Of a stretch of DNA of 64,000 nt, positions 3,693 to 61,275 are shown one piece after another. Origin of the DNA: Azovibrio restrictus DSM 23866 (GTDB taxonomy: Bacteria > Pseudomonadota > Gammaproteobacteria > Burkholderiales > Rhodocyclaceae); contig NZ_AUCH01000018.1 of NCBI RefSeq assembly GCF_000429665.1, positions 25,317-89,316 of the forward strand, given 5' to 3'. Position numbers and translations under genes: made by a program. Each line of letters starts with the position of its first letter. Within the stretch, counting starts at the first letter, position 1. The notes beneath the pieces were generated by a model. It was given only the letters and a program-made list of their open reading frames with translations, made no database searches and had not been told where the DNA came from.

Positions 3693-3693
3693 T

Positions 3694-16011: not shown

Positions 16012-16064
16012 AAGCCAGGGCGAGACGGATAGTGCTTCGATACCCATGCCATGAAAGGAAAGCC

Positions 16065-18116: not shown

Positions 18117-18131
18117 ACCTTCAAGGGAGTC

Positions 18132-20863: not shown

Positions 20864-20941
20864 GGTTTACCCGGGCGGGGGGAGGCGGCGGAGGCGTTTG
20901 GCGGGTACACTGCCGGACTTTTCCCCGTACCTCGCCTGCCC

Positions 20942-22249
<1,308 letters not shown>

Positions 22250-43709: not shown

Positions 43710-44296
43710 GCCCCATGCAGATCATCCTGATGCGCCATGGCCGGCCCCTGGGCCCCGGCCTCAGATGGCTGAGCGCCCGGGCCTTCGGCGCCTGGGTGGA
43801 TGCCTATGACGCGGCGCCCATCGATCCCGCCTGTCCGCCGCCCGCCGTAGCCCTCCGGCTGGCCCGGCAGGCCGCTTGGGTGCAGTGCAGCAGCCTGCCC
43901 CGTTCCCTTTCCTCGGCGGCCGCCCTGGGGGTTCGGCCCGATGCCGGGGATGCCGCTTTCCGGGAGCTGGACATGCCCCGTGCAGACTGGCGTTTTCCCC
44001 CTCTGCCCGTGGCCTGCTGGTTGCTGCTGTTCCGGCTGGCCTGGGTGGCGGGCTACCGTCGTCAGGCCGAATCCTTTGCCGCGGCCCGGGACCGGGCTGC
44101 TGCCTGCGCCGCCGGGCTGATCCAGCTGGCCGGCCAGCAGGGCAGCGTGCTTTTTGTCGGGCACGGGGCCCTGAACTGGTTCATCGGCCGGGCCCTGCGC
44201 CGGGCGGGCTGGCAGTCTTCCGGCGGCGCCCGGCGCCACTGGGAGGCCGCCGTGTTCAGCCGGGGCGAACCCGTTTTTCCGGAGCATGCCGGATGA
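43706..44296 (+). CDS. Histidine phosphatase (phosphoglycerate-mutase-like) family protein inserted between sbcD and sbcC
   Basis: The RHG catalytic motif (IILMRHGRP) is present. Its start overlaps the sbcD stop (ATGA) and its stop overlaps the sbcC start (ATGA). Confidence 0.65.
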   Translation: MSPMQIILMRHGRPLGPGLRWLSARAFGAWVDAYDAAPIDPACPPPAVALRLARQAAWVQCSSLPRSLSSAAALGVRPDAGDAAFRELDMPRADWRFPPLPVACWLLLFRLAWVAGYRRQAESFAAARDRAAACAAGLIQLAGQQGSVLFVGHGALNWFIGRALRRAGWQSSGGARRHWEAAVFSRGEPVFPEHAG

Positions 44297-47200
44297 AGAT
44301 CCTCCGTCTGCGCCTGAAGAACCTCAACTCCCTCAAGGGGGAGTGGAGCATAGACTTCACCCGGCCGCCCTTCGTGGATAACGGCCTGTTTGCCATCACC
44401 GGGCCCACCGGGGCGGGCAAGTCCACCCTGCTGGACGCCATCTGCCTCGCCCTCTACCACCAGACGCCGCGCCTGGAGCGGATTTCCAGCAGCGACAACG
44501 GCATCATGACCCGGCACACGGCCGACTGTCTGGCCGAGGTGGAATTCGAGGTGAAAGGGTCGGCCTATCGGGCCTTCTGGAGCCAGCGCCGGGCCCGGGA
44601 CAAGGCGGATGGCGCCCTGCAGGCCGCCAAGGTGGAACTGGCCGAGCTGGCCCCCGATGGCAGCGGCACCATCCTTTCCAGCCAGGCCGCGGACAAGCTG
44701 AAGCGCATCGCGGAGATCACCGGCCTCGACTTTCCCCGGTTCACCAAGTCCATGCTGCTGGCCCAGGGCGGTTTTGCCGCCTTCCTGAACGCCAGCGCCA
44801 ACGAGCGGGCCGAGCTCCTGGAGGAGCTCACCGGCAGCGAGATCTACGGGGAAATCTCCCGCCGGGTCTTCGAGCAGGCCCGGGCGGCCCGTCAGGTGCT
44901 GGAGCAGCTCCAGGCCCGGGCCGAGGGGGTGGAACTGCTGAGCGAAGCCCAGCGGGCGGAAATGGCCGCCCGGATGGCCGGTCTGGAAAGCCAGCTGGCG
45001 GCCTGTCAGGCCCGGATCGCCACGCTCCAGGCCCAGCGCCAGTGGCGCCTGGACCTAGCCGGGAGCGAGCAGGAGGTCAGGGCTGCCGAAACCCGGCTGG
45101 CCGAGGCCGCCGCAGCCCTGGCTGAGATCGTCCCTGAGCTCCAGCGCCTGGCGGTGGATGAACCGGCCCAGGCCCTGCAGGCGCCCCATCTGGCCTGGCA
45201 GCAGGCGGCCGCCCTGGGCCGCCAGAGTGCCGCCGGGCTGGCCCAGCTGCGCCAGGAGCTGCAGCGTCTCCAGGCGGAGCAGTACGGCTGCCACCAGGAA
45301 GCCAGGGCCCTGGCGACCTTCCTGGCCGGGCAGGCGCAGGCCGCCCTGGGGCAGCTGGAGCAGGAGCTCCGGACCCTGGACGAATTCCGGGCCGCCCATC
45401 CCCAGCAGGCCCAGCTGGGGGAAAAACTGGGGGAATGGAAATCCCGCCTCGACGAAGCCCGGCGCCTGGAGGAGGAAAGCGCTGCCGGGCAGCGGCAGTT
45501 GCAGCAGTTGGCTGCCGAAATCGCCGCCCAGCAGGGGCGCCTGACGGCCCAGGCCCAGGCGGTCGGCACTGCCGGAGAGCTGGCTGCCCGGGCCGAGGCC
45601 AGGCTGCAGCAACTGTTGCAGGAGCAGGCGCAGCGCCTGGCCGGGCAAAGCCTGCCCGGGCTGCGGGCCGCCTGGCAGCAGGCCCAGACCCACCTCGGGC
45701 AGCAGCGGCAGCTTGCCGATCTGGCCCGCCAGCGGCGCGAGTTGAGCGCCCGCCACCGGGCCCGGCTCGAGCAGCAGCAGCGCTTGCAGACCCGGATGGC
45801 CGGCCAGGAGCAGGCCCTGGGCGAACTGCGCCGGGCCTATGAAAACCTCAACAGCCAAGTCCTGGACAAGCGCCGCCTGCTGGAGCAGGAAAAACTGATC
45901 CAGAGCCTGGAGGCCCACCGCCACCAGCTCCAGCCGGGCCAGCCCTGTCCCCTGTGCGGCGCCACCGGGCATCCAGCCATCGCCGCCTACCAGGCCCTCG
46001 ACCTGTCCGCCACCGCCAACGCCCTGGGCGAGAAGGAGGCGGAGCTCAAGGCCCTGACGGAAAAGGGCCAGCAGGCCCGGGCCGAGCAGGCCGCCAGCCG
46101 CGCCACCCTGGAGGCCGGGGAGAAGGAAGCCCTGGCCCTGGTGGCGGAACTGACCCGCCTCGCCGGGCTCTGGCAGGAAGCCCTGGAGGCGTTGGCGTCC
46201 GGGGACGGGTTTTCATCTTCATCCGATGTTGTGGCAGCAGCCGCCTGGGAGGATGAAAGCGCCCTGGCCGCGGCCTGCCAGCGGGCTGAACAGGAACTGC
46301 AGCGCCTGGCCCAGGACCTGCAAGCTGCCGAACAGGGGGAGGCGGCCATCCAGGCCGCCCGCCAGCAGACCGCCCAGGCGCAGCAGGCCCTGGAAGCCGC
46401 CCGGCACCAGCAGGGCTTGCTGCAGCAGCAGGGCCAAGCCCAGGAGGTTCGCCAGGGGGAGTTGCAGCAGGCCCTGGCCGCCCGCCAGCAGGCCCGGGCC
46501 GATCTGCTCGGCCAGCTCACTGCCGCCATCCAGGCCGCCGGGCACGGGGCCCCGGACCTGTCGTCGCCCACTGCTGCTGCCGACTGGCTGGCGGCCCGGG
46601 AAGCCGAGTGGCGCTTGTGGGAGCAGCGGCAGCTCCGCCGCCAGGAGCTGGCCGGCGCCCTGATCCGCCAGCAGAGCCAGGCGGAGGCCGCCCGGGCTGC
46701 GGCTGCCCTGTGGGAGCAGCGCGGCCGGGAACTGGCCCTTGCCCCCGAGGGGGCGACGGCCGCTCCCGACCTTGATCCGGCCGATGGGGCCGAGGCCGCC
46801 GCCCGGCTGGCCCGCTGTGAACAAGACAGCGAGCGCCTGGACCGGGAGCTGGCGGCCCTGGCCGGGCGCCAGAGCCAACTGGCTGCCGACCTGGCCCGCC
46901 AGGAACTGGCCGAGCAGGCATGCGCCGCCGCCTGGCAGGCCGCCCTGCACGACAGTCCCTTCCCCGATCAGGCCGCCTGGCAGGCGGCCCTGCTTTCCGA
47001 GGACGAGCGCCAGCGCCTGGGGCAGCTGAGTCAGGTGCGGCAGCAGGCCCGGCAGCAGGCCGAAGCCGTGCTCCAGGCCGCCCGGGACAAATTACAGAAG
47101 CTGCAGGCGCAGCTCTCCAGTGCCGGGGAACCGCCGGCCCTGATCGAGCTGGAAGCCCTGCTGGCCCAACAGGACAGCCAGCTGCGCAGCCACAGCGAAC

Positions 47201-47805
47201 AGCTGGGGGCCGAGCGGGCCCTGCTGGAGCGGGACACCCGGGCCCGCCAGAACCAGCAGACCCTGTTCGCCGAAATCGACCGGCAGCGGGCCGACAGCGA
47301 CCTCTGGCAACGGCTGGACAGCCTGATCGGCTCGGCCCGGGGCGACAAGTTCCGCAAGTTCGCCCAGGGCCTCACCCTGGACCACCTGCTGGCCCTGGCC
47401 AACCGCCACCTGGGCCGTCTGCACGGCCGCTACCTGCTGCGCCGCAAGGACCTGGGGGAGCTGGAACTGGACATCATCGACAGCTGGCAGGGGGACGTGG
47501 CCCGGGACACACGCACCCTCTCCGGCGGCGAGAGCTTCCTGGTCAGCCTGGCCCTGGCCCTGGCTCTTTCGGACCTGGTCAGCCACAAGACCTCCATCGA
47601 CTCCCTGTTCTTGGATGAAGGTTTCGGCACCCTGGACGGGGAGACCCTGGAAACCGCCCTGGATGCCCTGGACAGCCTCAACGCCAGCGGCAAGATGATC
47701 GGCATCATCAGCCACGTGGAAAGCCTGAAGGAGCGGATACCGGTGCAGGTCCATGTGGACAAGAGCAGCGGCGTGGGCTACTCGGGCCTGCGGGTGAAGG
47801 GCTAG
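44293..47805 (+). CDS. sbcC: Exonuclease SbcCD ATPase subunit SbcC (SMC/Rad50-like)
   Basis: The N-terminal Walker A FAITGPTGAGKST is present, followed by a long coiled coil with a CPLCG zinc hook. The C-terminal signature LSGGESFLVSLALALAL...LFLDEGFGTLD is present. The true start is MKILRLRL at 44293 (track start 43876 is upstream in-frame). Confidence 0.92.
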   Translation: MKILRLRLKNLNSLKGEWSIDFTRPPFVDNGLFAITGPTGAGKSTLLDAICLALYHQTPRLERISSSDNGIMTRHTADCLAEVEFEVKGSAYRAFWSQRRARDKADGALQAAKVELAELAPDGSGTILSSQAADKLKRIAEITGLDFPRFTKSMLLAQGGFAAFLNASANERAELLEELTGSEIYGEISRRVFEQARAARQVLEQLQARAEGVELLSEAQRAEMAARMAGLESQLAACQARIATLQAQRQWRLDLAGSEQEVRAAETRLAEAAAALAEIVPELQRLAVDEPAQALQAPHLAWQQAAALGRQSAAGLAQLRQELQRLQAEQYGCHQEARALATFLAGQAQAALGQLEQELRTLDEFRAAHPQQAQLGEKLGEWKSRLDEARRLEEESAAGQRQLQQLAAEIAAQQGRLTAQAQAVGTAGELAARAEARLQQLLQEQAQRLAGQSLPGLRAAWQQAQTHLGQQRQLADLARQRRELSARHRARLEQQQRLQTRMAGQEQALGELRRAYENLNSQVLDKRRLLEQEKLIQSLEAHRHQLQPGQPCPLCGATGHPAIAAYQALDLSATANALGEKEAELKALTEKGQQARAEQAASRATLEAGEKEALALVAELTRLAGLWQEALEALASGDGFSSSSDVVAAAAWEDESALAAACQRAEQELQRLAQDLQAAEQGEAAIQAARQQTAQAQQALEAARHQQGLLQQQGQAQEVRQGELQQALAARQQARADLLGQLTAAIQAAGHGAPDLSSPTAAADWLAAREAEWRLWEQRQLRRQELAGALIRQQSQAEAARAAAALWEQRGRELALAPEGATAAPDLDPADGAEAAARLARCEQDSERLDRELAALAGRQSQLAADLARQELAEQACAAAWQAALHDSPFPDQAAWQAALLSEDERQRLGQLSQVRQQARQQAEAVLQAARDKLQKLQAQLSSAGEPPALIELEALLAQQDSQLRSHSEQLGAERALLERDTRARQNQQTLFAEIDRQRADSDLWQRLDSLIGSARGDKFRKFAQGLTLDHLLALANRHLGRLHGRYLLRRKDLGELELDIIDSWQGDVARDTRTLSGGESFLVSLALALALSDLVSHKTSIDSLFLDEGFGTLDGETLETALDALDSLNASGKMIGIISHVESLKERIPVQVHVDKSSGVGYSGLRVKG

Positions 47806-47858
47806 GGATTGCCGGGCGGGCCGGGGGGCCGGCGGCGCCCCTGGAAAGGGAGGCTGGC

Positions 47859-48977
47859 TCAGTCCTGCTTCCAGGCCAGCCGGGTCCAGGGGCTGGAAGG
47901 GTCCTGCAGGAGGAACTGGCGGGCGTCGTCGAAGATATCCATGTTCCCGCCGCCGCTCCAGAAGCCCCTGCCGATGATGTAGTTCTCGCTCATCTCCTGC
48001 CAGGAGGCAAAGCGGGCTTTCAGTGCGGTGCTGGCCAGCCTGATCCAGTGCCAGGCCTCCTCATCCAGGATGAAGCCGGCGGCGGCGGCCAGGCGGGCCA
48101 CGGCCACCAGGCGGCAGTAGTCCCAGGCATGGATGGAGGGATGGCGCTCGCCGTGGGTGCGCAGGTAATGCACGGCGCAGACGAAATGATCCTTCTCCTT
48201 ACGCTTCAACTGCTGGCGGGCCTCCGGCGCCAGCAATTCCAGGGGATCGATGACGTCCGGCCTGGCCGCGAGCATTTCCCTGATCTGATCGTACTCGTCC
48301 CGGTGCCCTTCCGTGTCCAGCCACTGCAGCATCCGGCGGGCCTCGGCCCCGTTGCGGATGCCCCAGCTTTCCTCCAGCAGGGCGCCCATGAGCTTCTTGT
48401 GGAAGCGCCCCGGGATGTCCCCGTGCAGACAGTCATGGCGCTGCTGGTTGGCCGCAGTCTGCATGGCGCTCAAAGCCAGCCCGAACAGCTGATCCTCGGA
48501 CAGGGGCGGCACGGGCTGGTACGCCATCCTGAGCTGGTTCAGGAGCTCCACCAGCTTGGTCGGGCCATAACCCCGGAAATAGGCCTGGAACGAGATTTCG
48601 CCGCTCTCACCCGGGGCCTTGCCCGAATCGGGGGTGAAATGGACGTAGATTCTCTTGTTGCCGGGGGAGTCGAGGGAGCCGCCCAGAAAGAAGCTCTCGA
48701 TCTCCGTCCAGGCGTGCCGCCGGGGGGAGAACGCCTGACGCAGGCAGAACCCCGTTTCATCCAGGGTCAGCTGCTCGCGCAGTCGCAGCAGGGCGAACAG
48801 GCCGAGGGCCAGGAATCCAGCGCCGATCCCGGCCACGGTCATGTTGAATTTCGTGAACAGTCCGGACCACAGCATCAGCCCGCCCCCGATGAAAAAGGGC
48901 GGGCCGAGCAGAACCATCAATATCTTGCGGCCTAGGCCTAGGGGTAACACCATGGGTAACTGGACTGGCGCTTTCAT
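47859..48977 (-). CDS. Membrane-anchored hypothetical protein (possible DUF1266-like C-terminal domain)
   Basis: An AGGAGGA RBS precedes ATG 48977 (MKAPVQ). Two N-terminal TM helices are present. The rest of listed ORF 47859..50318 is antisense to the helicase gene and spurious. GC is lower than the genome background. Confidence 0.6.
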   Translation of the reverse strand: MKAPVQLPMVLPLGLGRKILMVLLGPPFFIGGGLMLWSGLFTKFNMTVAGIGAGFLALGLFALLRLREQLTLDETGFCLRQAFSPRRHAWTEIESFFLGGSLDSPGNKRIYVHFTPDSGKAPGESGEISFQAYFRGYGPTKLVELLNQLRMAYQPVPPLSEDQLFGLALSAMQTAANQQRHDCLHGDIPGRFHKKLMGALLEESWGIRNGAEARRMLQWLDTEGHRDEYDQIREMLAARPDVIDPLELLAPEARQQLKRKEKDHFVCAVHYLRTHGERHPSIHAWDYCRLVAVARLAAAAGFILDEEAWHWIRLASTALKARFASWQEMSENYIIGRGFWSGGGNMDIFDDARQFLLQDPSSPWTRLAWKQD

Positions 48978-49211
48978 GTCTCCTCCTGGAATTGGCAAGT
49001 CCCTCCTGCAGCGGCGCCATTGCTGGCCCCGGGAGAGGGAGTTGGAAATCCCATTATCATAATCCAGGGGCGGGGCAGGTTCCAGCGCCGCAACCGGGCA
49101 TTCCAATTGCAAGAAAAGCGTCAGAGAATAGGCGCACCTCAAAATCATGAATACGGGGCGGGGCGCTGCAGGGTGGAGGCTTTGCAGTGCTGCTCGGACC
49201 CGGTCTAGCCC

Positions 49212-51035
49212 ATGGCACTTTTCTTTCCCGACATTCATTCCAAGAACCTGAAGCTCACCCCCGGAGAGCGTCGGTTTGCAACCTGTCTGTTGCGCACCCT
49301 GGAGGACGATTATTGTTGCTGGATCAATGTGCCGGTCGGCAGCAAGCAGCTTCGGCCTGACTTCATCGTGCTGCATCCAGGGCGCGGCATCCTGACCCTG
49401 GAGGTGAAGGACTGGAAGCTGCCGACAATCCGCAGCATGGATCGTTTCAGCGCCGAAATCATGACGGAGCGGGGCCCCAAGACCCTGGTCAATCCCCTGG
49501 AGCAGGCCAGGGGCTACGCGCTGGCCATCAAGGAAATCCTGGAGCGCGATCCGCTCTTGGTACAGCAGGAGCCCGGGCGTTATCACGGACATTTGCTGCT
49601 GCCCTGGGGCTTCGGTGTGGTCCTGACCAACATCAGCCGCCGTCAGTTCGAGGCGAGTGGTCTGGCGCAGGCGATTCCCTCGGACCGGGTCATCTGCCAG
49701 GACGAAATCACCGAAGGAACTGATCCGGAAGCCTTTCAACAAAGACTCTGGGACATGTTCCAGTACCAGTTCGGCGGCTTGTTGTCTCTGGCGCGCATCG
49801 ACCGGGTGCGCTGGCATCTTTTTCCTGAGGTGCGGATCAACCAGCTCGGGCTGTTCGGTGGCGAGGCCGAAGAACCGGACCAGGAGGGGCGGATCAACCA
49901 GTTCCTGCCGGAGCTGATCAAGGTCATGGATACCCAGCAGGAAAAGATTGCCCGCAATCTGGGAGAGGGGCACCGCATCGTGCATGGCGTTGCCGGCTCC
50001 GGCAAAACCCTTTTGCTGGCTTTCCGCTGCCTGCATCTGGACAAGATGAACCTGGTCAAGCCCATCCTGGTGTTGTGCTACAACAAGACCCTGGCCGCGA
50101 AGCTGACGGAAATGCTGCGTCAGCGGGGCGTAGGCGACAACGTTCATATTCGGCACTTTCATGGCTGGTGCAAGGCCATGTGCGACCTCTATCAGCTGGA
50201 CCTGGAAAAATCCGAGCGGCCCGTCTACAAGCGGCAGGTGGAGGCGGTCATCCGGGGGGCCGAGGCCGGCCGGGTTCCCCGGGCCCAGTATTCGGCGATC
50301 CTGATTGATGAAGGCCACGATTTCGAGCCGGAGTGGTTCAGGCTGCTGATCCAGATGATCGATCCGGAAACCAATTCCCTGCTGCTGCTCTACGACGATG
50401 CCCAGAGCATCTACGGCAAGAAGAAGCGCCGTTCAGTCTCCTGGGCCAGCCTGGGTATCAAGGCGAGCGGGCGCAGCACCATCCTCAAGGTCAATTACCG
50501 GAATACCGTCGAGGCCCTGGATTTTTCCTACCAGTTCCTTTCAGCCTATATCGACGAAAGCAGCGGTACGGAGGAGGCTCCCCTGATCCATCCGGACGCG
50601 GGGGGACGCAATGGACGCAAACCGCTTGTCAGGCGTTTCGATTCACTGTCCGGAGAAGCTGATCATCTGGCCCAATGGCTGCAGGCCAGGGCCAGAACCG
50701 GGGTGCCCTATGAGGACATGGCCGTACTTTGCCGTTTCAACCGGCAGATCGAGGATTTTCACGGTGTCCTGAGTCGCAAGGGCGTGCCTGCCAGCAAGGA
50801 ACTGCTGGGGCGCTCCGGGGTTCGCCTGCTGACCATCCATGCCAGCAAGGGACTTGAGTTCAACACGGTGGCCATTCCTGATCTGGGCTGCATGCCCTAT
50901 GCCAAGGTGAGCCCGGAGGAGGAGGCGAAGCTCCTCTACGTGGCACTGACTCGTTCCACTGACTCCCTGTTGGTTTCCTACCATCGGGAAAGCGAGTTCA
51001 CCCAGCGTTGTGAAGCCCTGGCCAAGGGTGACTGA
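49212..51035 (+). CDS. NERD nuclease-domain / UvrD-like SF1 helicase fusion protein (Nhi-like nuclease-helicase)
   Basis: The N-terminal NERD-like region reads CWINVPVGSKQLRPDFIVLHPGRGILTLEVKDW. Helicase motifs include VHGVAGSGKT (Walker A), LIDEGHDF, IHASKGLEF and LYVALTRS. GC is lower than the flanks. Confidence 0.8.
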   Translation: MALFFPDIHSKNLKLTPGERRFATCLLRTLEDDYCCWINVPVGSKQLRPDFIVLHPGRGILTLEVKDWKLPTIRSMDRFSAEIMTERGPKTLVNPLEQARGYALAIKEILERDPLLVQQEPGRYHGHLLLPWGFGVVLTNISRRQFEASGLAQAIPSDRVICQDEITEGTDPEAFQQRLWDMFQYQFGGLLSLARIDRVRWHLFPEVRINQLGLFGGEAEEPDQEGRINQFLPELIKVMDTQQEKIARNLGEGHRIVHGVAGSGKTLLLAFRCLHLDKMNLVKPILVLCYNKTLAAKLTEMLRQRGVGDNVHIRHFHGWCKAMCDLYQLDLEKSERPVYKRQVEAVIRGAEAGRVPRAQYSAILIDEGHDFEPEWFRLLIQMIDPETNSLLLLYDDAQSIYGKKKRRSVSWASLGIKASGRSTILKVNYRNTVEALDFSYQFLSAYIDESSGTEEAPLIHPDAGGRNGRKPLVRRFDSLSGEADHLAQWLQARARTGVPYEDMAVLCRFNRQIEDFHGVLSRKGVPASKELLGRSGVRLLTIHASKGLEFNTVAIPDLGCMPYAKVSPEEEAKLLYVALTRSTDSLLVSYHRESEFTQRCEALAKGD

Positions 51036-51135
51036 GCCATCCAGGCGCTTGCGGCAGGCCCATGGCTGCCAGGGGATTGCGCAAAGCAGCCGTGGGCATG
51101 TTCAGTTCACGCCCACGGCCATGGGGAGGCGGGCT

Positions 51136-51333
51136 TCAGGAGTGTTGCAGCTTGTTGGCGTGAACGAACATGGCCCATTCCTCCGGGTCCAGTTCCATCT
51201 GGCAGTTGTCGCCTTCGATATCCGCTTCCAGGAGGAAGAACTCCGGGGCGGCCTGGTAGGTGGTGATGCGGGAAACATTGACGGTCAGGGGGCTGATGGC
51301 GGATTGCCAGCGGCCCAGGGCAGGTTGTTCCAT
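51136..51333 (-). CDS. Small hypothetical protein (65 aa)
   Basis: A short ORF (MEQPALGRWQSAISPL...) in the low-GC islet. Weak support. Confidence 0.25.
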   Translation of the reverse strand: MEQPALGRWQSAISPLTVNVSRITTYQAAPEFFLLEADIEGDNCQMELDPEEWAMFVHANKLQHS

Positions 51334-51516
51334 GATCGACCTTTCTCGGCAAATGGAGGAAATGCCTCGAATCCTGGCTATGGACGGGAATCCCATGTAG
51401 CAGTGATCCGGACATGAGCTTGGGACTGATGTTTGGCGAAAGGGTTCCAGGGGGGGAAAATCCCGGGCCGTGATCGTCATGCTGGCGATCCTGATGCCGA
51501 GAGGGAGTTTCCATTC

Positions 51517-51681
51517 ATGTTCTTCGCCATCCTTTTCCTGTGCCTGGCCGCCCTGGGCAGCTATTTTTTCCCCGAATGGTCCTGGGCCGCGCTGCTCGGC
51601 GCTTCCTTCGGCATCGTCGTGACCCTGCGCCTGGCGCTGCTGCTGGGGGAGCGTTCGGGCAAGGCGGCGGACCGGGGCTGA
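51517..51681 (+). CDS. Small hydrophobic membrane protein (54 aa)
   Basis: A GAGGGAG RBS sits 7 nt upstream of the ATG. It has two predicted TM helices (MFFAILFLCLAALGSYFF...). Confidence 0.35.
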   Translation: MFFAILFLCLAALGSYFFPEWSWAALLGASFGIVVTLRLALLLGERSGKAADRG

Positions 51682-51748
51682 TGCCCGGGGCAGCATGGTC
51701 CCTGGTGCTGCAGGTATACTTTCGGCATTTCATCCGGGGTTTTGTCCC

Positions 51749-52726
51749 ATGGCCATTTTTCGCTGCAACAAATGCGGTCTGCTTGCCGAGCAGGCGGATT
51801 CCCTTGCGGGACAATCTCTGAATTGCTCCAAGTGCGGGGCGCCAGCCCAGGTGTATCCCACCTTGTTTTTCATAGAAAAGCTTCTGGCGCGCTATTTTTC
51901 CGCCCAAAAGGAGATTGCCCAGTTGAAGGGACCGGTGGCTGAGCCGGCCCCCGCGCTTCCCGGGGGGGGAATGGAAGGCATTGATCTGGGAAATACCGAC
52001 GCCCTGGCCAGTGACCAGCAGCATGGTCCGATCTATGACTGGTTTCGCAAGAAACAGATCAGGGTGGAGGCCAATCTGCGCGGTGTTGATACGAGCGGCT
52101 TCTTCGATGAAGTGGCGGAAGCCATCGGCGCCAATCTGCCTGTCCTGAAGGAAGTGCTGGAGCGGATACGCTGGTCCCAGCAGAAGGAGCATGCCAGTGC
52201 CACCATCAATCTGGACAAGAAATCCCCGGAGGATGCCAAGGCCATCATCCGGTTCTGTCAGCAACTTTACGATTTTTCCTTCGTGGCCAAGTGCTTTCAC
52301 AACAAGCCTGAAAACAATGTGCGCCTGATTCTGCAGAGCGCCCCGGCCATCCGCTGTTTCTTCAGCGGGGAATGGCTGGAGTGGCATGCGCTGATGACCA
52401 GCCTGCGCTATGCCAAAGAGCGCAAGCAACGGTTTTCCTGCGCCCGTGGCTTGAAGCTGGATCTGGGCAAGGAGACCCACGAACTGGATGTGTTCATGCT
52501 GATCGATGGTAAGACCCCGGTCTGTATCGAATGCAAAAGCGGGGAGTTTCGCCAGAACATCGATCTTTATCTGGCCCTGAAGAAGCGCCTGGGCCTGGAG
52601 CGCAGGCAGTTCCTGATGTGCATTGCCGGCCTTGAAGATGAAAAAGCCAGGGCTTTTTCCGCCATGTATGACCTGAGCTTCACCAACGAACGGGGACTGG
52701 CGGAGCAACTGGCTCAGCTGTTCTGA
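51749..52726 (+). CDS. Zn-ribbon (CxxC...CxxC) protein with C-terminal PD-(D/E)xK nuclease-like motif
   Basis: The N-terminus reads FRCNKCGLL...NCSKCGAP. The C-terminus HELDVFMLIDGKTPVCIECKSGEF fits the D...(D/E)xK restriction-endonuclease fold. GC is low. The ATG at 51749 is preferred over track start 51695. Confidence 0.55.
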   Translation: MAIFRCNKCGLLAEQADSLAGQSLNCSKCGAPAQVYPTLFFIEKLLARYFSAQKEIAQLKGPVAEPAPALPGGGMEGIDLGNTDALASDQQHGPIYDWFRKKQIRVEANLRGVDTSGFFDEVAEAIGANLPVLKEVLERIRWSQQKEHASATINLDKKSPEDAKAIIRFCQQLYDFSFVAKCFHNKPENNVRLILQSAPAIRCFFSGEWLEWHALMTSLRYAKERKQRFSCARGLKLDLGKETHELDVFMLIDGKTPVCIECKSGEFRQNIDLYLALKKRLGLERRQFLMCIAGLEDEKARAFSAMYDLSFTNERGLAEQLAQLF

Positions 52727-52800
52727 GGCAGGTCGCTGCTTGGAGAAGGTCGAGGCCCCGGGAACGGGGCCTCGACACATCGGCGGCGACCCGCCGTCCC

Positions 52801-53535
52801 TCAGTGATCCAGGGGTTTGAGCAGGAAGGAGAAGGTGGCGGCGTGCTGGACGATGTCGGCGTCCTCGGTGCTGGCCGGCGCTTCGTGGGTGGCGTAGATG
52901 ACGTTCAGGCCCTGGTTTGGCACCTTGATCCTGACGATGCCCTGGGAGTCGGTCTTGACCGAGCGGTTGTCGGGGTCGTTGGCGAAGTCCGGGGCGAGGC
53001 GCAGGCCGGGCAGGGGTTTGCCGTTGAAGAGCACGCGCAGCGCCATGATCTCCCCCTTCTTCCTGGGTAGCCGGGGTTCCACGGGCAGGATCTGCAGGGG
53101 CTGGTCCGCCAGGGGCTGCGCGGCCTGGTTCAGGTCGCCGCTCTGGTGGATGGCATGCTTGTAGTAACGGCCGCTCTTGATGGCGTCGGGGGTGGCGCTC
53201 TTGGCGGCATTCACCCATTTCCCGTCGCGCTGCTGGCTGTAGTAGCCATTGTCCAGGGTGGCGCCGAGCAGGGCCGGGGCATCCCGGGTGTCCACCAGCA
53301 GCAGGTATTCGGTCTTGGTGAGCAGCATCGGCAGGGCCTGGCCGTTGGCGTCCAGGGCCTGCAGCTGGCTGATCTTGTCGGCCTTGGGGACGATCGGGCC
53401 ATCTTCGGCGCCATCGCCGTAGACCAGGGCCAGCTTGCCGGCCCGCTGGGCGAACCAGATGCCGTGGGCGTTGGCGGCGGGACTGAGGCAGGCCAGGAGC
53501 AGCAGGGCGCTGGCCAGTTTTTGCAGACGGATCAT
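52801..53535 (-). CDS. Periplasmic DUF4198-like protein (signal peptide), TonB-cluster associated
   Basis: The signal peptide is MIRLQKLASALLLLACLSPAANA. The true start is the ATG at 53535, and the upstream part of ORF 52801..54507 is out of frame with the real neighbour. Confidence 0.6.
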   Translation of the reverse strand: MIRLQKLASALLLLACLSPAANAHGIWFAQRAGKLALVYGDGAEDGPIVPKADKISQLQALDANGQALPMLLTKTEYLLLVDTRDAPALLGATLDNGYYSQQRDGKWVNAAKSATPDAIKSGRYYKHAIHQSGDLNQAAQPLADQPLQILPVEPRLPRKKGEIMALRVLFNGKPLPGLRLAPDFANDPDNRSVKTDSQGIVRIKVPNQGLNVIYATHEAPASTEDADIVQHAATFSFLLKPLDH

Positions 53536-53549: not shown

Positions 53550-54686
53550 TCAGAAATAGGAGCGCCAGCCCCCCTGATGCTGGCGCTTGTAGGCGGCGAA
53601 GCTGTGGCACAGGGGATAGACGGCGAGCAGCACCAGGGCGGCGGTCAGCCAGATCGGCCAGACCTGTTCGAAGCCGTAGCGGCTGCCCTGGTTGGGGCCC
53701 CAGATTTGCAGGCAGAGCAGGTACAGGCCGTGCAGCAGGTAGAGGTGCAGGACGTAGAAGAACATGGGCACCCGGCCCAGGTCGGACCAGAAGCGCGGCA
53801 GGGGCCGGCGCTCCAGGCGTACCAGCAGCAACAGCCCGGTGCCCAGGGTGAGCAGCAGGAACAGTAGCGAGGGCGGGTATTTGGTCAGGTTGAGCCAGCT
53901 CATCAGCTGCCCCAGCAGGGTATCGGCCGGCTGGCGCGGGTGCTCGCCGTAGACGTCCAGGGCGCGCAGCAGCAGGAACAGCAGCAGGGCACCCAGCCCG
54001 GCCGGGAGCAGCCAGCGGCGCCGCAGTTCGGGGCTGGCGCTGCGGCCGTACAGGGGGCCGGCGGCGTAGCCGAGCAGGATCACCCCGAACCAGGGCAGGG
54101 CCGGATAGGAAGTGCGCGCCTGCAGCCCGAACAGCTCGATCAGCGAGCGGTCGTGCAGGATGGCCCAGAGCACCTGGCCCGTGTCGCCGGGGTTGAGATG
54201 CAGGCCGTCGAACAGGTGGTGCCCGGCGATGATGGCGATGCCGAGGACGAATTGCCAGAGGCGCGGCAGCCAGAGCAGCAGGGCCAGGGCCAGCATGCTC
54301 AGGCCTATGGCCCAGATCACCTGCAGGTAGATGATCCGGGGCGGCCAGCTGAAGGTCCAGGCGAAGTTGATCAGCGTCAGCTCCAGGAGCACCAGGAACA
54401 GGCCCCGCTTGAGCAGATAGACGCTGGTGGCCGGGCGGGGATCGGCGAATTTCTGGCCGTAGCACCAGGCGCCCAGACCGGTCAGGAAGACGAAGATCGG
54501 GGCGCACCAGTGGCTGGCCAGGCGGGTGAAGAACAGGGCCGGGTCCACGCTGCCCAGGTCCATGGGGTCGCTGACCTGTTGGTGCAGGTAGAAGAACTCG
54601 CGCACGTGATCCACCAGCATCAGGGCCATCACCAGGCCCCGCAGGGTATCGATGGCGCTGATGCGTTGGGCAGCTTGGGGGATCAA
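53550..54686 (-). CDS. Polytopic membrane protein, DUF1624 (acyltransferase-3-like) family
   Basis: The N-terminal motif RISAIDTLRGLVMALMLVDH is followed by multiple TM helices. The probable TTG start lies just after the TonB receptor stop. Confidence 0.6.
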   Translation of the reverse strand: MIPQAAQRISAIDTLRGLVMALMLVDHVREFFYLHQQVSDPMDLGSVDPALFFTRLASHWCAPIFVFLTGLGAWCYGQKFADPRPATSVYLLKRGLFLVLLELTLINFAWTFSWPPRIIYLQVIWAIGLSMLALALLLWLPRLWQFVLGIAIIAGHHLFDGLHLNPGDTGQVLWAILHDRSLIELFGLQARTSYPALPWFGVILLGYAAGPLYGRSASPELRRRWLLPAGLGALLLFLLLRALDVYGEHPRQPADTLLGQLMSWLNLTKYPPSLLFLLLTLGTGLLLLVRLERRPLPRFWSDLGRVPMFFYVLHLYLLHGLYLLCLQIWGPNQGSRYGFEQVWPIWLTAALVLLAVYPLCHSFAAYKRQHQGGWRSYF

Positions 54687-54688
54687 GT

Positions 54689-56812
54689 TCAGAACCTCGT
54701 CTGCAGGCCGAGGGTGAGGGTGCGCGGCGTGCCCGGCGTCACCCAATACACGTCATAGGAGCTGGCGTAGTAGGTCTTGTCGAACAGGTTTTCCACGTCC
54801 AGGGACAGGCGCAGGTTCTTGCTGGGCTTCCAGTAGGTCATCAGGCGGGCCGTGGTGTAGGCGGGCAGGCTGAAGCTGTCGAGGGCGTTGCCGGAGCGCT
54901 CGCCCACATGGGTGAGCCCGGCGCCGATGCCGTAGCGGCCGGCGGAGAAAGCGTCCTCGTACATGGCCATGACGCTGCCGCTGTGCCTGGGCACGTTGAG
55001 CAGGCGGGCGCCTTGCAGGGCGGCGTTGTTGTCCTTGGTGATCTTGGCGTCGGTATAGGCGTAATTGGCGGTGACGCGGATCTTGTCGGTCAGCTGGCCG
55101 GAGAAATCCACTTCCAGGCCCCGGCTGCGGGCCTCGCCAGCGGCGATGGAAAAGCCCGAGTTGTTCAGGTCGTTGGTGAGCACGTTCTTCTTGTCGATAT
55201 CGAACAGGGCCAGGGTGCCCCCGTAGCGCTTGTCGGCCGATTCGTACTTGACCCCCACTTCCCGGGCGCGTCCTTCTTCCGGGGCGAAGGCGCCGCCATT
55301 CACGTCGCTGCCGGTGTTGGGCCGGAAGGACTCGCTGGCCAGGGTGTAGACGGACAGGGTCGGATTGAGGAGCCAGGTTAGGCCGATGCGAGGTGTGGTG
55401 GCCTGGTGATCCTGCTGGACCCGGGTGTCGCTGCTGCGATTGCTGATGTCCTGGCGGAAGCGGTCATGGCGCAGCCCCACCAGGAGCCGCCAGCTTTCGG
55501 CCAGGGCGATCTGGTCCTGCAGGAAGAAACCGGTGCCGTACTGTTTTTCCAGGGTATCCACGGGTGTGGTGTTCAGGGCCAGGGGCGTCTGGCCATAGAC
55601 CGGGTCGTGGATGTTGATGCCGTAGGCGCTGGTGGAGCGGCCCCGGGTCATCAGCTGATCCAGCTCGAAACGGTAGCTGTCGAGGCCGGCCAGCACCTCG
55701 TGGCGGATGGTGCCGGTGGCGAACTTGCCCTGCAGCTCGCCCTGGAAGGAAATGTCGTGGGAATCGTAATCCCGGTAACGGCGCTCCCGTTCGATGATGG
55801 GGGCACCGGCCGTGGTCCAGCGCACGACCCCGGCGCTCCGGGGGCTGGCTTCGGTGGAATAGCCGCTGAATTCCCCGGTCCGGTAGGCTAGGCCGGCCTT
55901 GGCCTTCCAGTCGCTGGAGAACTCATGCTCCAGGGTCAGCTGGTGGGTCTTGTTGTCGATGGTGACGTCGCCGTCCCCGGGTTCTCCCAGGAAGGTCTTG
56001 CGGGAAATGCTGCCGGTGCGGCCGTTGACCGCCACCACGCCGCGGTCCAGGGGGGCCTTGTGGCGCAGGATTTCCAGGTCGTAGTTGAGCAGGGTGTCGG
56101 GAGACAGCACCCAGGTGAAGGAAGGCGCCACCAGGTAGCGTTCGCTCTCCACCTGGTCCCGGAAACTGCCCTTGTCCTCCACCGCCAGGTTCAGGCGGTA
56201 GGCCAGCCGCTCGGAGAGGGGGCCGGTGGAATCCAGGGTGCTGCGGTAGCTGTCGTAGCTGCCCGCATAGACCTCCAGGGAGTGGCCGGCCTTGAACTGG
56301 GGTTTCTTGGTCACCACGTTGAGGATGCCGCCCGGCTCGCTGGCCCCGTACAGGGCGGCGGCCGGCCCCTTGAGGACTTCCACCCGCTCCACGTTGGCCA
56401 TGTCCCGGGGGGCGTTGAAGCCCCGGTTGCCGATGAAGCCGTTGCGCAGGAAGCTGGGGCCGGTGTTTTCATGGCCGGCGAAACCGCGGATGGCGAAGTT
56501 GTCCCACAGGCCCCCGAAGCTGTTCTGGCGGGTGACGCCGCTGACGTAGTCGTAGGCCTCCTCCAGCCGCACGGCGCCGATGTCGTCGATGATCTGGCGG
56601 GGAATTACCCGCACCGACTGGGGCAGTTCCCGCAGCGGCGTGCCGGAACGGGCGACGCTGCTTTCCTCCTGGTAATAGGCCTGGCCTTCGCCACGGCCCA
56701 CCACGTTCACTTCCGTGAGTTGCAGATCATTTTCCTGGGCCCAGGCGCTGCAGTGGAAACCGGCCAGCAGCATCAGGGCCAGGGGCTTGGGCTTGAATCG
56801 GGTTTGCATCAT
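54689..56812 (-). CDS. TonB-dependent siderophore/metal receptor
   Basis: A signal peptide is present, with a TonB-box-like DLQLTEVNVVGRGE. A plug domain is present and the beta-barrel ends in terminal Phe (...LQTRF). Confidence 0.9.
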   Translation of the reverse strand: MMQTRFKPKPLALMLLAGFHCSAWAQENDLQLTEVNVVGRGEGQAYYQEESSVARSGTPLRELPQSVRVIPRQIIDDIGAVRLEEAYDYVSGVTRQNSFGGLWDNFAIRGFAGHENTGPSFLRNGFIGNRGFNAPRDMANVERVEVLKGPAAALYGASEPGGILNVVTKKPQFKAGHSLEVYAGSYDSYRSTLDSTGPLSERLAYRLNLAVEDKGSFRDQVESERYLVAPSFTWVLSPDTLLNYDLEILRHKAPLDRGVVAVNGRTGSISRKTFLGEPGDGDVTIDNKTHQLTLEHEFSSDWKAKAGLAYRTGEFSGYSTEASPRSAGVVRWTTAGAPIIERERRYRDYDSHDISFQGELQGKFATGTIRHEVLAGLDSYRFELDQLMTRGRSTSAYGINIHDPVYGQTPLALNTTPVDTLEKQYGTGFFLQDQIALAESWRLLVGLRHDRFRQDISNRSSDTRVQQDHQATTPRIGLTWLLNPTLSVYTLASESFRPNTGSDVNGGAFAPEEGRAREVGVKYESADKRYGGTLALFDIDKKNVLTNDLNNSGFSIAAGEARSRGLEVDFSGQLTDKIRVTANYAYTDAKITKDNNAALQGARLLNVPRHSGSVMAMYEDAFSAGRYGIGAGLTHVGERSGNALDSFSLPAYTTARLMTYWKPSKNLRLSLDVENLFDKTYYASSYDVYWVTPGTPRTLTLGLQTRF

Positions 56813-60924: not shown

Positions 60925-61275
60925 TTTCCAACGCTCCCCGGTGGTGGCTCGGGGTGTTGGAGGATGTGGCCGGTCTTGCGGAAGCGGCAGGCGGGATGCG
61001 CCAGCTGCCTGCGGACAGGGGCCGTCATCGTCCTGGAGGCACCCCGCTCCGTTCGACAAAGTGATCTGGACGGGCGAGGTATCCTGGCTTTCGGGTCATC
61101 GCGTCGCGCCGGCCTTCCCGGAAAAATCCAGTGGCACCGATGGCGTGAAACTCACCGACTACAGTTGCGGGGGCAGCTCCGGAATGGGGCGGATGTTTCC
61201 GCCGGGACCGGATTCCCTGACACGTCTGGGGCCGGAGTTTAGGCGGGGGGTAGAGGCCGTGTCAACGGAGTTTTT

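What the first reader, a model, noticed from the sequence alone, without database searches (positions are those of the whole stretch)
47830..52760. Low-GC islet between sbcC and a TonB cluster encoding a NERD-UvrD nuclease-helicase (Nhi-like), a Zn-ribbon PD-(D/E)xK protein and a membrane-anchored protein: candidate defense island
GC drops visibly to roughly 55-58% by eye, against ~68% in the flanks. The 607-aa protein fuses a NERD nuclease-related domain to a complete SF1 UvrD-like helicase, the architecture of the single-gene Nhi anti-phage system. Nearby are a protein with an N-terminal double CxxC zinc ribbon and a C-terminal D...ExK motif, two tiny ORFs, and a divergently encoded membrane-anchored protein. 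No integrase or transposase is visible, so the insertion mechanism is unclear.
Basis: partly seen in the sequence, partly recalled or inferred. Interest (0 to 1): 0.65.

Follow-up and report, generated by a model that had tools for sequence, protein, structure and literature searches.

The report
Variable nuclease genes downstream of sbcCD
Downstream of the DNA-repair genes sbcDC, this bacterium carries a changeable stretch with two unrelated, stand-alone predicted nucleases (a NERD-UvrD nuclease-helicase and a sensor-less Can2-type nuclease), which are plausible but unproven anti-phage genes and do not belong to the Nhi family.

Summary
The genes exist as described. The GC dip is real but milder and narrower than stated: about 0.60 over 49.0-52.8 kb (z = -2.1 within the window), carried by three genes whose GC3 is 0.71-0.79 against 0.87-0.93 next door.

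The 607-aa protein is an intact NERD + UvrD-type (SF1A) helicase. It is not Nhi, whose helicase is the DUF2075 SF1B type. It matches PADLOC model C3a187, an uncharacterised type III CRISPR accessory cluster, over its full length (5e-148). Relatives are solo genes in unrelated neighbourhoods, on plasmids and at prophage edges. In Acidovorax they pair with an OLD-family nuclease.

The DUF1266 membrane protein has host-like composition and is frameshifted in that sister strain.

None of these genes co-occur elsewhere, so this is not one system. The sister species has a type III restriction-modification system at the same site, so this is a variable spot that sometimes holds defence genes. A defence role for the helicase-nuclease is plausible (about 0.5) and weaker for the Can2-like nuclease.

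The parts
44293..47805 (+). sbcC, the left flank. It is conserved with the sister species up to its stop codon.
   Evidence: NCBIfam SbcC 1e-252. Synteny with L011 ends at window 47802.
47859..48977 (-). Gene A: a 372-aa protein with two N-terminal transmembrane helices and a C-terminal DUF1266 domain. Its composition is host-like and it is probably not part of any defence function.
   Evidence: Pfam DUF1266 3e-35. No PADLOC hit. GC3 0.87. Frameshifted in L004/L005 and intact in L097. Absent from the sister species.
48434..48461 (.). A 28-bp segment inside gene A that is deleted in the 98.5%-identical strains L004/L005. The deletion frameshifts A there.
   Evidence: blastn alignment gap. Only a 176-aa DUF1266 remnant is called in L004/L005.
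49212..51035 (+). Gene B: a 607-aa stand-alone NERD (PD-(D/E)xK) nuclease fused to a compact UvrD/Rep-type SF1A helicase, of the C3a187 family.
   Evidence: Pfam NERD, UvrD-helicase, UvrD_C and AAA_19. PADLOC C3a187 5e-148 over the full length. Invariant E19, D50, E64-x-K66, GSGKT, DEGHD, YDDAQ, NYRN, SKGLEF and YVA.TR motifs. GC 0.600, GC3 0.76.
49212..49544 (+). NERD nuclease domain of B (residues 1-111).
   Evidence: Pfam PF08378 residues 17-111. The first 233 residues alone match C3a187 at 1e-54.
49914..51011 (+). SF1A helicase core of B (residues ~235-600).
   Evidence: Pfam and PDB matches to UvrD, PcrA and HelD.
51136..51333 (-). 65-aa ORF convergent with B. It has no known domain, is found only in this lineage, and shares B's atypical GC3.
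   Evidence: Gene calls in L004 and L097. 98-100% identical in four strains and absent from every other locus fetched at that point. No Pfam hit. GC3 0.79.
51517..51681 (+). 54-aa small hydrophobic protein with host-like composition. Homologues lie downstream of sbcC in two related species, so it is probably ancestral to the locus.
   Evidence: L025 and L029 at 57-59% identity. GC3 0.87.
51682..52766 (.). A 1085-bp strain-variable cassette that carries only gene C. In L004/L005 it is replaced by 53 bp. The left junction falls immediately after the TGA of the 54-aa ORF.
   Evidence: blastn break points and junction sequences. Present in L097-L100. Nucleotide similarity to other lineages is limited to the coding sequence.
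51749..52726 (+). Gene C: 325 aa. It has a zinc ribbon (residues 1-37), a long helix (38-60), a disordered linker (61-90) and a Can2/VC1899-type extended PD-(D/E)xK nuclease domain (~100-325). It has no CARF domain.
52801..53535 (-). DUF4198 gene, the first gene of the TonB-receptor cluster (with HGSNAT_cat 53550-54686 and the TonB-dependent receptor 54689-56812). This cluster is also absent from the sister species at this site but has host-like composition.
   Evidence: Pfam. Synteny with L011 resumes only at window 56906. GC3 0.89-0.93.

Best explanation
The interval is not a single system. It is part of a variable stretch (47.8-56.9 kb) downstream of sbcDC that has collected unrelated genes, including two independent one-gene nuclease modules.

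Gene B
- B is a stand-alone NERD-UvrD nuclease-helicase of the uncharacterised C3a187 family.
- Shown: the PD-(D/E)xK residues and all SF1 helicase motifs are intact and invariant. The gene moves between chromosomal sites, plasmids and prophage edges. Relatives at 44-46% identity are operonic with an OLD-family or ABC-ATPase nuclease partner.
- Inferred: B loads on DNA ends or replication and recombination intermediates of invading DNA, translocates as an SF1A motor (3'-5'), and cuts with its N-terminal nuclease. That makes it a functional analogue of Nhi, Hna, Gabija or RecB, most likely acting against phages or plasmids.

Gene C
- C is a recently gained one-gene cassette. It encodes the complete nuclease domain of the cOA-activated effectors Can2/Card1, but a zinc ribbon plus helix replaces the CARF sensor.
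- Inferred: C is a dimeric metal-dependent nickase or RNase. Control probably comes through the zinc-ribbon module (nucleic-acid or partner binding) rather than through cyclic oligoadenylate. Its biological role, defence or nucleic-acid housekeeping, is open.

Gene A and the 54-aa ORF
- A (DUF1266 membrane protein) and the 54-aa ORF are host-like bystanders.
For: Variability
- A strain 98.5% identical lacks the 1085-bp C cassette and has a 28-bp frameshift in A. Other strains carry all the genes.
- In the sister species L011, 5.1 kb encoding a type III REase (5e-121) and MTase (1e-227) replaces window 47.8-56.9 kb.
- Among 22 related species, the 6 kb downstream of sbcC also holds Mrr, Old, SoFic-like, AriA-like and PDC-S48 hits.

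Composition
- B, the 65-aa ORF and C have GC3 of 0.71-0.79, against 0.87-0.93 for their neighbours.

Gene B
- Full-length match to C3a187.
- Catalytic motifs are invariant down to 46% identity.
- It is a solo gene in five unrelated chromosomal contexts.
- It lies on Ralstonia megaplasmids beside a gene pair annotated 'toxin' and 'transcriptional regulator', and on conjugative E. coli and Vibrio plasmids beside RelE/ParE-NadS and PIN-HTH pairs.
- It occurs on 8 IMG/VR contigs, mostly at contig ends.
- Neighbours of 14 homologue loci hit PD-Lambda-1 (2), Old, DpdF, PDC-S48 and methyltransferase models.
- In Acidovorax L026 a class-2-like OLD nuclease lies 32 bp downstream of the B homologue.

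Gene C
- Model pLDDT is 80.8.
- The aligned length of 198-209 residues equals the 166-366 nuclease domain of Can2 (PMC7969007).
- The same module is fused elsewhere to TerD, ankyrin, TPR, S1 and other zinc ribbons.
Against: - No experiment links either family to defence.
- B's closest relatives (56-83% identity) are widespread in Betaproteobacteria and often sit among housekeeping genes, for example directly after RNase G in at least 12 places. The 47% homologue is present in 114 Ralstonia megaplasmid records, in most listed records at about the same coordinate. That pattern also fits a conserved repair or recombination helicase.
- C's relatives sit at a fixed hrpA-crcB position in Dechloromonas-like genomes. 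Elsewhere they lie among metabolic genes, and they are absent from plasmids, phages and viral contigs. That is not a defence-island pattern.
- B homologues have lower GC than their flanks in other genomes too, so the dip may partly be a property of the family.
- Most downstream-of-sbcC neighbours in related species are signalling or metabolic genes.
Confidence: 0.55

Rival explanations
1. B is a member of the Nhi (nuclease-helicase immunity) family and works as Nhi does.
For: Both are about 606-607 aa, with an N-terminal PD-(D/E)xK-type nuclease followed by an SF1 helicase. The 'Nhi-like' protein of Millman et al. carries a NERD domain.
Against: Nhi and Nhi-like are defined by a DUF2075/PF09848 helicase whose closest structural matches are the SF1B helicases Dda, Upf1 and DNA2. 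B's helicase is the UvrD/Rep SF1A type (PF00580, PF13361, PF13245). PF09848 scores 16.3 bits against a cut-off of 24. PDB matches are UvrD, PcrA and HelD. No Nhi-named PADLOC model appears among B's hits, and the N-terminal 233 residues hit only C3a187 and RTasNERD-Hel at E <= 1.
Confidence: 0.04
2. B is a housekeeping or accessory DNA-repair and recombination helicase-nuclease, comparable to RecB, AddA or HelD. It lies next to sbcDC because both process DNA ends. The low GC is a property of the family, not evidence of recent transfer.
For: Identity is high (56-83%) across many Betaproteobacteria. Homologues lie in housekeeping neighbourhoods in L006 and L007-L010. The gene is conserved in 114 Ralstonia megaplasmid records. 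B-like genes lie within 10 kb of sbcC in the window and in three Comamonadaceae. Homologues have lower GC than their flanks in other genomes.
Against: The position is not conserved between genera, and the gene is missing at this locus in the sister species. It is carried on conjugative plasmids and at prophage edges, and lies next to OLD, PD-Lambda-1, PDC-S48 and toxin-antitoxin genes. The family was first noticed next to type III CRISPR cassettes.
Confidence: 0.3
3. A, B, the small ORFs and C together form one multi-gene defence system or island acquired as a unit.
For: The genes are physically adjacent within 5 kb. B, the 65-aa ORF and C share a lower GC3.
Against: C is absent and A is frameshifted in a strain where B is intact. 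Seven further chromosomal and plasmid B contexts contain neither A nor C. None of about 85 C loci contains B. A and the 54-aa ORF have host-like GC3. The flanking genes of different homologues share no similarity.
Confidence: 0.05
4. C is a degenerate, 'cast-adrift' remnant of a CRISPR ancillary nuclease, like VC1899, with no current function.
Against: Purifying selection is strong across the family. About 110 columns are invariant, including the whole active site and the region before the nuclease core. There are 858 cluster representatives at E <= 1e-3, with repeated fusion of the module to different N-terminal domains. The position is conserved in Dechloromonas-like genomes.
Confidence: 0.1

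Closest known systems
C3a187 'NERD+UvrD' cluster: type III CRISPR-associated accessory cluster 187 of Shah et al. 2018 (PMC6546367), PADLOC model PDLC01087
   Same: B matches the model end to end (residues 1-603 to model positions 1-556 of 559, E 5e-148). The domain composition is the same.
   Different: In the window, and in the 14 homologue loci examined, the gene is not next to a type III CRISPR cassette. The cluster has no demonstrated function.
Nhi (S. epidermidis SERP2475) and the Nhi-like protein of Millman et al. 2022
   Same: Both are single polypeptides of about 600 aa with an N-terminal PD-(D/E)xK or NERD nuclease followed by an SF1 helicase. The logic of a nuclease-helicase acting on foreign DNA is the same.
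   Different: The helicase is the UvrD/Rep SF1A type, not the DUF2075 type whose closest matches are SF1B helicases. PF09848 falls below threshold. B lacks the glyoxalase-like C-terminal domain. No sequence relationship was detected.
Class 2 OLD nuclease + UvrD-like helicase pairs, and Gabija (GajA + GajB)
   Same: B's helicase core matches GajB models (E 1e-19). In Acidovorax L026 a 45%-identical B homologue lies 32 bp upstream of an OLD-family nuclease whose best PDB match is the OLD-family endonuclease 6p74 (a class 2 OLD to my knowledge), with GajA also matching.
   Different: The window has no OLD or GajA partner. B carries its own nuclease (NERD), which GajB, to my knowledge, lacks.
Can2 / Card1 / VC1899 (DUF1887 family; Pfam Card1_endonuc PF09002)
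   Same: C shares the whole extended PD-(D/E)xK nuclease domain and active-site motifs: G-x-W-[LF]-E, ELDV and IECK. One homologue is named 'DUF1887 family protein' by NCBI.
   Different: There is no CARF domain, and a zinc ribbon, helix and linker take its place. The gene is not CRISPR-linked. Pfam PF09002 is not reported for C itself and is near or below its cut-off in relatives.
E. coli YbeU/YbeR-type DUF1266 proteins
   Same: Gene A has a full-length DUF1266 domain (3e-35).
   Different: A has an N-terminal two-helix membrane anchor. It matches the NCBIfam YbeU-like model only weakly (39 bits against a cut-off of 386). No function is known.

Membership tests
Nhi / Nhi-like | N-terminal PD-(D/E)xK-type nuclease domain with intact catalytic residues | tested here: met
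   NERD PF08378 at 5e-10. E19, D50 and E64-x-K66 are invariant in 12 sequences down to 46% identity.
Nhi / Nhi-like | Central DUF2075 (PF09848) helicase, closest to SF1B helicases | tested here: not met
   PF09848 scores 16.3 bits against a cut-off of 24. The strong hits are UvrD_C, UvrD-helicase and AAA_19. PDB hits are UvrD, PcrA and HelD.
Nhi / Nhi-like | Match to a Nhi family profile | tested here: inconclusive
   No Nhi-named model appears among PADLOC hits. I could not verify that this PADLOC copy contains a Nhi model.
Nhi / Nhi-like | Anti-phage activity that depends on the nuclease and helicase, triggered by phage SSB or replication intermediates | not testable with these tools
   Needs plaque assays and escaper mapping.
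C3a187 (NERD+UvrD CRISPR type III accessory cluster) | Full-length profile match | tested here: met
   PDLC01087: 5e-148, residues 1-603 to model positions 1-556 of 559.
C3a187 (NERD+UvrD CRISPR type III accessory cluster) | Encoded next to a type III CRISPR-cas cassette | tested here: not met
   No ORF of 50 aa or more in 47.8-57 kb is left unassigned that could be a cas gene. Neighbour scans of 14 homologue loci listed no Cas10, Csm or Cmr models. The rest of the genome is unknown.
Gabija / class 2 OLD-helicase pair | Adjacent OLD-family (ATPase-Toprim) nuclease gene | tested here: not met
   tblastn of the Acidovorax OLD and ABC-ATPase partners against the window found no hit. B's neighbours are A and the 65-aa ORF.
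Can2 / Card1 (DUF1887 CARF nucleases) | Can2-type PD-(D/E)xK nuclease domain with catalytic E/D...ExK | tested here: met
Can2 / Card1 (DUF1887 CARF nucleases) | N-terminal CARF (Rossmann-fold) cOA-binding domain | tested here: not met
Can2 / Card1 (DUF1887 CARF nucleases) | Association with type III CRISPR or another cyclic-nucleotide synthase | tested here: not met
   Five annotated C loci and the neighbours from 23 further contexts show no such genes. Within the fetched flanks, most of the other metagenome loci showed only the hrpA-crcB synteny.
Defence island / hotspot | Content differs between close relatives at a conserved chromosomal position | tested here: met
   Strain-level gain or loss of C. 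The sister species has a type III R-M system between the same flanks.
Defence island / hotspot | Neighbouring genes are recognised defence systems | tested here: inconclusive
   In the window, only B (a Cas-accessory model) and C (partial CARF_PDDEXK) hit PADLOC. Across 22 related species the downstream-of-sbcC region has R-M III, Mrr, Old, SoFic-like, AriA-like and PDC-S48 hits, but most genes are signalling or metabolic.

The most novel reading that the evidence does not exclude
Two new one-gene immune effectors lie side by side.

(1) The NERD-UvrD (C3a187) family would be a widespread single-protein anti-phage or anti-plasmid nuclease-helicase built on an SF1A motor. It would be convergent with Nhi and evolutionarily linked to the OLD/Gabija helicase partners.

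(2) A large family (over 850 cluster representatives) would reuse the Can2/Card1 effector nuclease with the cOA-sensing CARF domain swapped for other input modules: zinc ribbon, TerD, ankyrin, TPR or S1. That would be a cyclic-nucleotide-independent way of triggering the same nuclease.
Probability: 0.3. Interest if true: 0.65.

Novelty: new variant of a known kind. Interest (0 to 1): 0.42.

Why it matters
If B protects against phages, a very common betaproteobacterial gene would gain a function. It is catalogued only as an uncharacterised CRISPR accessory cluster. It would also link solo NERD-UvrD proteins to the OLD/Gabija-type nuclease-helicase pairs.

If the CARF-less Can2-type nucleases are regulated enzymes, they would show that the effector domain of type III CRISPR signalling has been rewired repeatedly to other sensors. 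That would give a handle on how such nucleases are kept silent without a cyclic-nucleotide switch.

If neither holds, the locus is an ordinary variable region with two orphan nucleases.

Tried and rejected
- Flanking repeats, tRNA and integrase as an insertion mechanism: only short, imperfect chance-level repeats, and the sole tRNA is 15 kb away.
- Promoter and terminator scan: not above shuffled expectation.
- A conserved partner gene for B or C: all-against-all comparison of flanking genes found nothing beyond synteny between close relatives.
- The idea that C is always next to a helicase (HrpA, DinG-like, B). In 80 metagenome loci this reduces to hrpA synteny in one lineage. No DinG-like or B neighbour was seen.
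- CARF-likeness of C residues 92-198. A domain-only model reached only pLDDT 64, so no fold search was run on it. The Can2 domain boundaries from PMC7969007 explain the region as part of the extended nuclease domain.
- Plasmid, phage and viral carriage of C: none. Phage carriage of B in GenBank phages: none.
- Donor search for the C cassette: nucleotide similarity to other lineages is at most 80% and confined to the coding sequence.
- Literature search for a characterised NERD-UvrD defence protein or for TerD-DUF1887 fusions: none found.
- Rfam and tandem-repeat scans: nothing in the region of interest except a weak two-copy 30-bp repeat just outside it, inside the HGSNAT_cat gene.
Full report
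**Observation**

- A, 47859-48977(-), 372 aa.
- B, 49212-51035(+), 607 aa.
- A 65-aa ORF, 51136-51333(-).
- A 54-aa ORF, 51517-51681(+).
- C, 51749-52726(+), 325 aa. The start is fixed by 31 homologues that all begin MAI.RCNKC.

The flanks are sbcC (44293-47805) and a DUF4198 / HGSNAT_cat / TonB-dependent-receptor cluster.

The GC dip is real but smaller and narrower than stated.
- 500-bp windows read 0.56-0.62 between about 48.75 and 52.75 kb. sbcC reads 0.70-0.77 and the downstream side 0.65-0.69.
- The lowest 4-kb stretch of the whole window is 49001-53000 at 0.601, z = -2.1. Other stretches reach 0.62-0.63.
- Third-position GC is more telling. B is 0.76, the 65-aa ORF 0.79 and C 0.71. sbcC is 0.89, A 0.87, the 54-aa ORF 0.87 and the DUF4198 cluster 0.89-0.93.
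- So only B, the 65-aa ORF and C are compositionally atypical.

**Organism and locus history**

SbcC places the window in a Rhodocyclales-like betaproteobacterium. The nearest GTDB species representative is 'Betaproteobacteria bacterium UBA2592' (L011), at 80% identity over the C-terminal third of SbcC. Three levels of comparison are informative.

*1. Strains.*
- Contigs L004/L005 are 98.5% identical to window 42.0-57.0 kb. Window 51682-52766 (1085 bp, exactly gene C plus about 50 bp each side) is replaced there by 53 bp. The left break falls directly after the stop codon of the 54-aa ORF.
- The same strains have a 28-bp deletion in A (48434-48461) that frameshifts it.
- Strains L097-L100 carry C at the same place and an intact A.

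*2. Sister species.*
- In L011, synteny runs through sbcDC to window 47802 and resumes at window 56906.
- Between those points L011 has 5.1 kb encoding a type III restriction enzyme (PADLOC REase_III 5e-121) and its methyltransferase (MTase_III 1e-227).
- The window instead has 9.1 kb with A, B, the small ORFs, C and the TonB-receptor cluster.

*3. Twenty-two related species.*
- The 6 kb downstream of sbcC is not conserved. It mostly encodes signalling and metabolic proteins.
- It also includes Mrr (mREase_IV 4e-83, together with a VapC-like PIN gene in L029), Old, three SoFic-like, two AriA-like, PDC-S48 and one C3a187 hit.

The site is therefore a variable region that sometimes holds defence genes. 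No integrase, tRNA or meaningful flanking repeat explains the insertions.

**Gene B**

Domains:
- Pfam finds NERD (residues 17-111) and a UvrD/Rep-type SF1 helicase: UvrD-helicase, AAA_19, UvrD_C and UvrD_C_2.
- NCBIfam and PDB searches give only distant UvrD, PcrA, Rep and HelD matches.
- An alignment reaching down to 46% identity keeps these motifs invariant: E19, D50, E64-x-K66 (nuclease), GSGKT, DEGHD, YDDAQ.IY, KxNYRN, SKGLEF and YVA.TR. Both activities are probably intact.

Family:
- The best PADLOC model is PDLC01087, 'C3a187, NERD+UvrD', matched end to end at 5e-148. The next models (GajB) score only 1e-19. The N-terminal 233 residues alone hit only C3a187 and RTasNERD-Hel.
- C3a187 is cluster 187 of Shah et al. 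2018. It is a non-CARF accessory family seen beside type III-A/B cassettes in three genomes and suggested to add helicase-nuclease processivity (PMC6546367). It has no experimental characterisation that I could find.

Why it is not Nhi:
- Nhi (SERP2475, 606 aa) is defined by an N-terminal PD-(D/E)xK nuclease and a central DUF2075/PF09848 helicase. That helicase resembles Dda, Upf1 and DNA2, which are SF1B (bioRxiv 10.1101/776245).
[quoted passage not shown] The nuclease is listed as NERD.
- In B, PF09848 scores 16.3 bits against a gathering score of 24, and the helicase is clearly the UvrD type.
- B therefore shares the design of Nhi but not its family.

Distribution:
- Thousands of homologues exist. 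The closest, at 56-83% identity, come from Azoarcus, Propionivibrio, Nitrosomonadales, Gallionella, Nitrotoga and Rhodocyclaceae.
- The gene is always solo, and its neighbourhood differs between lineages:
  - beside ParBc_2 (L001);
  - beside an N6_N4 methylase, DUF5681 and terminase prophage remnant (L002/L003);
  - between metabolic genes (L006);
  - directly after RNase G in at least 12 places (L007-L010).
- A 47% homologue lies on 114 Ralstonia megaplasmid records. In most listed records it sits at a similar coordinate, and in OE1-1 it lies beside a gene pair annotated 'toxin' and 'transcriptional regulator'.
- Homologues at 37-43% identity lie on conjugative E. coli and Vibrio harveyi plasmids, beside RelE/ParE-NadS and PIN-HTH modules and resolvases.
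- Eight IMG/VR contigs carry one, mostly at a contig end. GenBank phages carry none.
- A PADLOC scan of 106 neighbour ORFs from 14 homologue loci found PD-Lambda-1 (2 members, 1e-85), Old (4e-186), DpdF (4e-110), PDC-S48, AriA-like, SoFic-like and methyltransferase hits. The PD-Lambda-1 hits are probably the gene just upstream of the homologue in L192/L193.
- In Acidovorax sp. Leaf191 (L026) the 45% homologue is followed after 32 bp by an OLD-family nuclease. Its best PDB match is the OLD-family endonuclease 6p74, a class 2 OLD to my knowledge, and GajA also matches.
- In Acidovorax L032 the homologue is followed after 25 bp by a 638-aa ABC-ATPase-like protein.
- Part of the family is therefore the helicase half of an OLD/Gabija-like pair. 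The window copy has no such partner.
- In L001, L006 and L007 the B homologue is 5-8 GC points below its flanks.

Taken together, B looks like a mobile accessory gene often found in defence and mobile-element contexts. Its frequent housekeeping neighbourhoods and its conservation within species keep a repair role alive.

**Gene C**

Structure:
- The AlphaFold model (32-sequence alignment, pLDDT 80.8) shows a four-strand zinc ribbon (1-37), a long helix (38-60) and a disordered, low-complexity linker (61-90). A compact alpha/beta domain follows from about residue 100 to 325.
- Sequence profiles agree weakly. Can2 aligns at E 0.05 over G-x-W-[LF]-E, ELDV and IECK. PADLOC CARF_PDDEXK models align only over their nuclease parts.

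No CARF domain:
- In SthCan2 the CARF domain is residues 3-151. The nuclease domain is residues 166-366 and includes an extra motif of four helices and two strands that is shared with VC1899 (PMC7969007).
- The 198-209 aligned residues, together with the HMM register (C 203 to Can2 229), mean that C residues ~100-325 correspond to the whole extended Can2 nuclease domain.
- A domain-only model of residues 92-198 was too poor to use (pLDDT 64).

Conservation and architecture:
- All catalytic residues (E245, D247, E261, K263 and the GEWLEW helix) are invariant, as are many residues before the nuclease core.
- A profile search of 1.84 billion cluster representatives found 858 relatives at E <= 1e-3.
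- In those relatives the ~70-331 module is attached to different N-terminal modules: TerD domains, 10-12 ankyrin repeats, TPR, S1 plus ANTAR, other zinc ribbons or coiled coils. Sometimes it carries C-terminal extensions. It never has a Pfam CARF domain.

Context:
- Homologues at 75-77% identity sit at a fixed spot divergent from hrpA and upstream of crcB in Dechloromonas-like genomes (L091, L093, L101, L102). One sits after a DinG-like helicase (L094).
- Of 80 metagenome loci, about half show hrpA and/or crcB within the fetched flanks, although many contigs are only a few kb long. In 23 other contexts the neighbours are overwhelmingly metabolic, with two SNF2 and two TIR_2 proteins the only defence-flavoured hits.
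- There are no plasmid, phage or viral-contig copies.

C is therefore a conserved, probably active, stand-alone nuclease that is core-like in one clade. In the window's species it has arrived as a single-gene cassette. Nothing but its ancestry links it to defence.

**Gene A and the small ORFs**

- A has two N-terminal hydrophobic helices and a complete DUF1266 domain (3e-35). It has no PADLOC hit and host-like GC3. It is decaying in L004/L005.
- The 65-aa ORF is found only in this lineage and shares B's composition. It may have arrived with B.
- The 54-aa hydrophobic ORF has homologues downstream of sbcC in L025 and L029. It is probably resident.

**Are they one system?**

No.
- B, C and A never co-occur outside this lineage.
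- The flanking genes of different homologues are unrelated.
- C can be absent while B is intact.

**Mechanism (inferred)**

*B.* B is an SF1A motor that loads on ssDNA or ends and feeds DNA to its own NERD nuclease. It probably targets replication or recombination intermediates of invading DNA, by analogy with Nhi, Hna, Gabija and RecBCD-type enzymes. What triggers it, and how self DNA is spared, are unknown.

*C.* Can2 and Card1 are dimeric, metal-dependent DNA nickases and RNases that are switched on by cA4 binding to CARF. C keeps the nuclease but not the switch. The zinc ribbon plus helix, and the TerD, ANK, TPR or S1 modules in relatives, presumably provide dimerisation and a different input.

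**Verdict**

The locus is a variable region carrying two orphan one-gene nucleases.
- B is a member of a catalogued but uncharacterised family (C3a187). It is not Nhi.
- C is a CARF-less variant of the Can2/Card1 nuclease.

I put the probability of a defence role at about 0.5 for B and about 0.3 for C. Interest is moderate.

Noticed in passing
window 22141-42471: About 20 kb absent from the syntenic region of sister species L011. It holds an Rtc RNA-repair module: RtcA 25311-26324(-), a HEAT-repeat protein 28055-29452(-), RtcB 29457-30674(-), a Band_7 protein 31433-32569(-), tRNA-Met 32832-32905(-) and RtcR 33367-34953(+). It also holds an unknown 443-aa gene and a 1768-aa DUF7379+CHAT protein at 36140-41446(-).
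   Followed up: partly
window 43706-44296 (+): A 196-aa ORF with no recorded Pfam family lies between sbcD and sbcC, overlapping both ends. It is called as a gene in L004, L005 and L097. It is missing in L011, but a similar stretch exists in Azonexus caeni L014.
   Followed up: no
L011 11283-15602: The sister species carries a complete type III restriction-modification pair (REase_III 5e-121, MTase_III 1e-227) exactly where the window has A, B, C and the TonB cluster.
   Followed up: yes
L026 16206-19768 and L032 12477-16233: In two Acidovorax species a NERD-UvrD homologue (44-46% identity) is operonic with a partner gene, 25-32 bp away: an OLD-family nuclease in L026 and a 638-aa ABC-ATPase-like protein in L032. 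Both pairs lie a few kb downstream of sbcC. This looks like a Gabija / class-2-OLD-like pair whose helicase carries its own NERD nuclease.
   Followed up: partly
L193 4100-7218 (also L192): On IMG/VR contigs a 414-aa gene lies directly upstream of a 37% B homologue. It is probably the source of the two PD-Lambda-1 PADLOC hits at 1e-85. The assignment is inferred from two identical ORFs, not shown per ORF.
   Followed up: partly
proteins P0266, P0283, P0326, P0372, P0347, P0365 (one search hits): The Can2-type nuclease module of gene C is fused in other organisms to TerD domains, 10-12 ankyrin repeats, TPR, or S1 plus ANTAR domains. I found no description of these architectures in the searchable literature.
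   Followed up: partly
window 3686-4270: Three tandem copies of a 196-bp unit (84% match) in a lower-GC stretch of the window.
   Followed up: no
window 61077-61218 (-): Cobalamin riboswitch (Rfam RF00174, 82 bits), downstream of the TonB-receptor region.
   Followed up: no
window 15796-20942: A further segment absent from L011 synteny. It encodes a TonB-dependent receptor (15918-18116) and a solute-binding protein (18132-19472).
   Followed up: no
L029 11398-12772: In an Azonexus species the genes directly downstream of sbcC are a low-GC3 Mrr-type type IV restriction enzyme (PADLOC mREase_IV 4e-83) and a PIN (VapC-like) toxin.
   Followed up: partly
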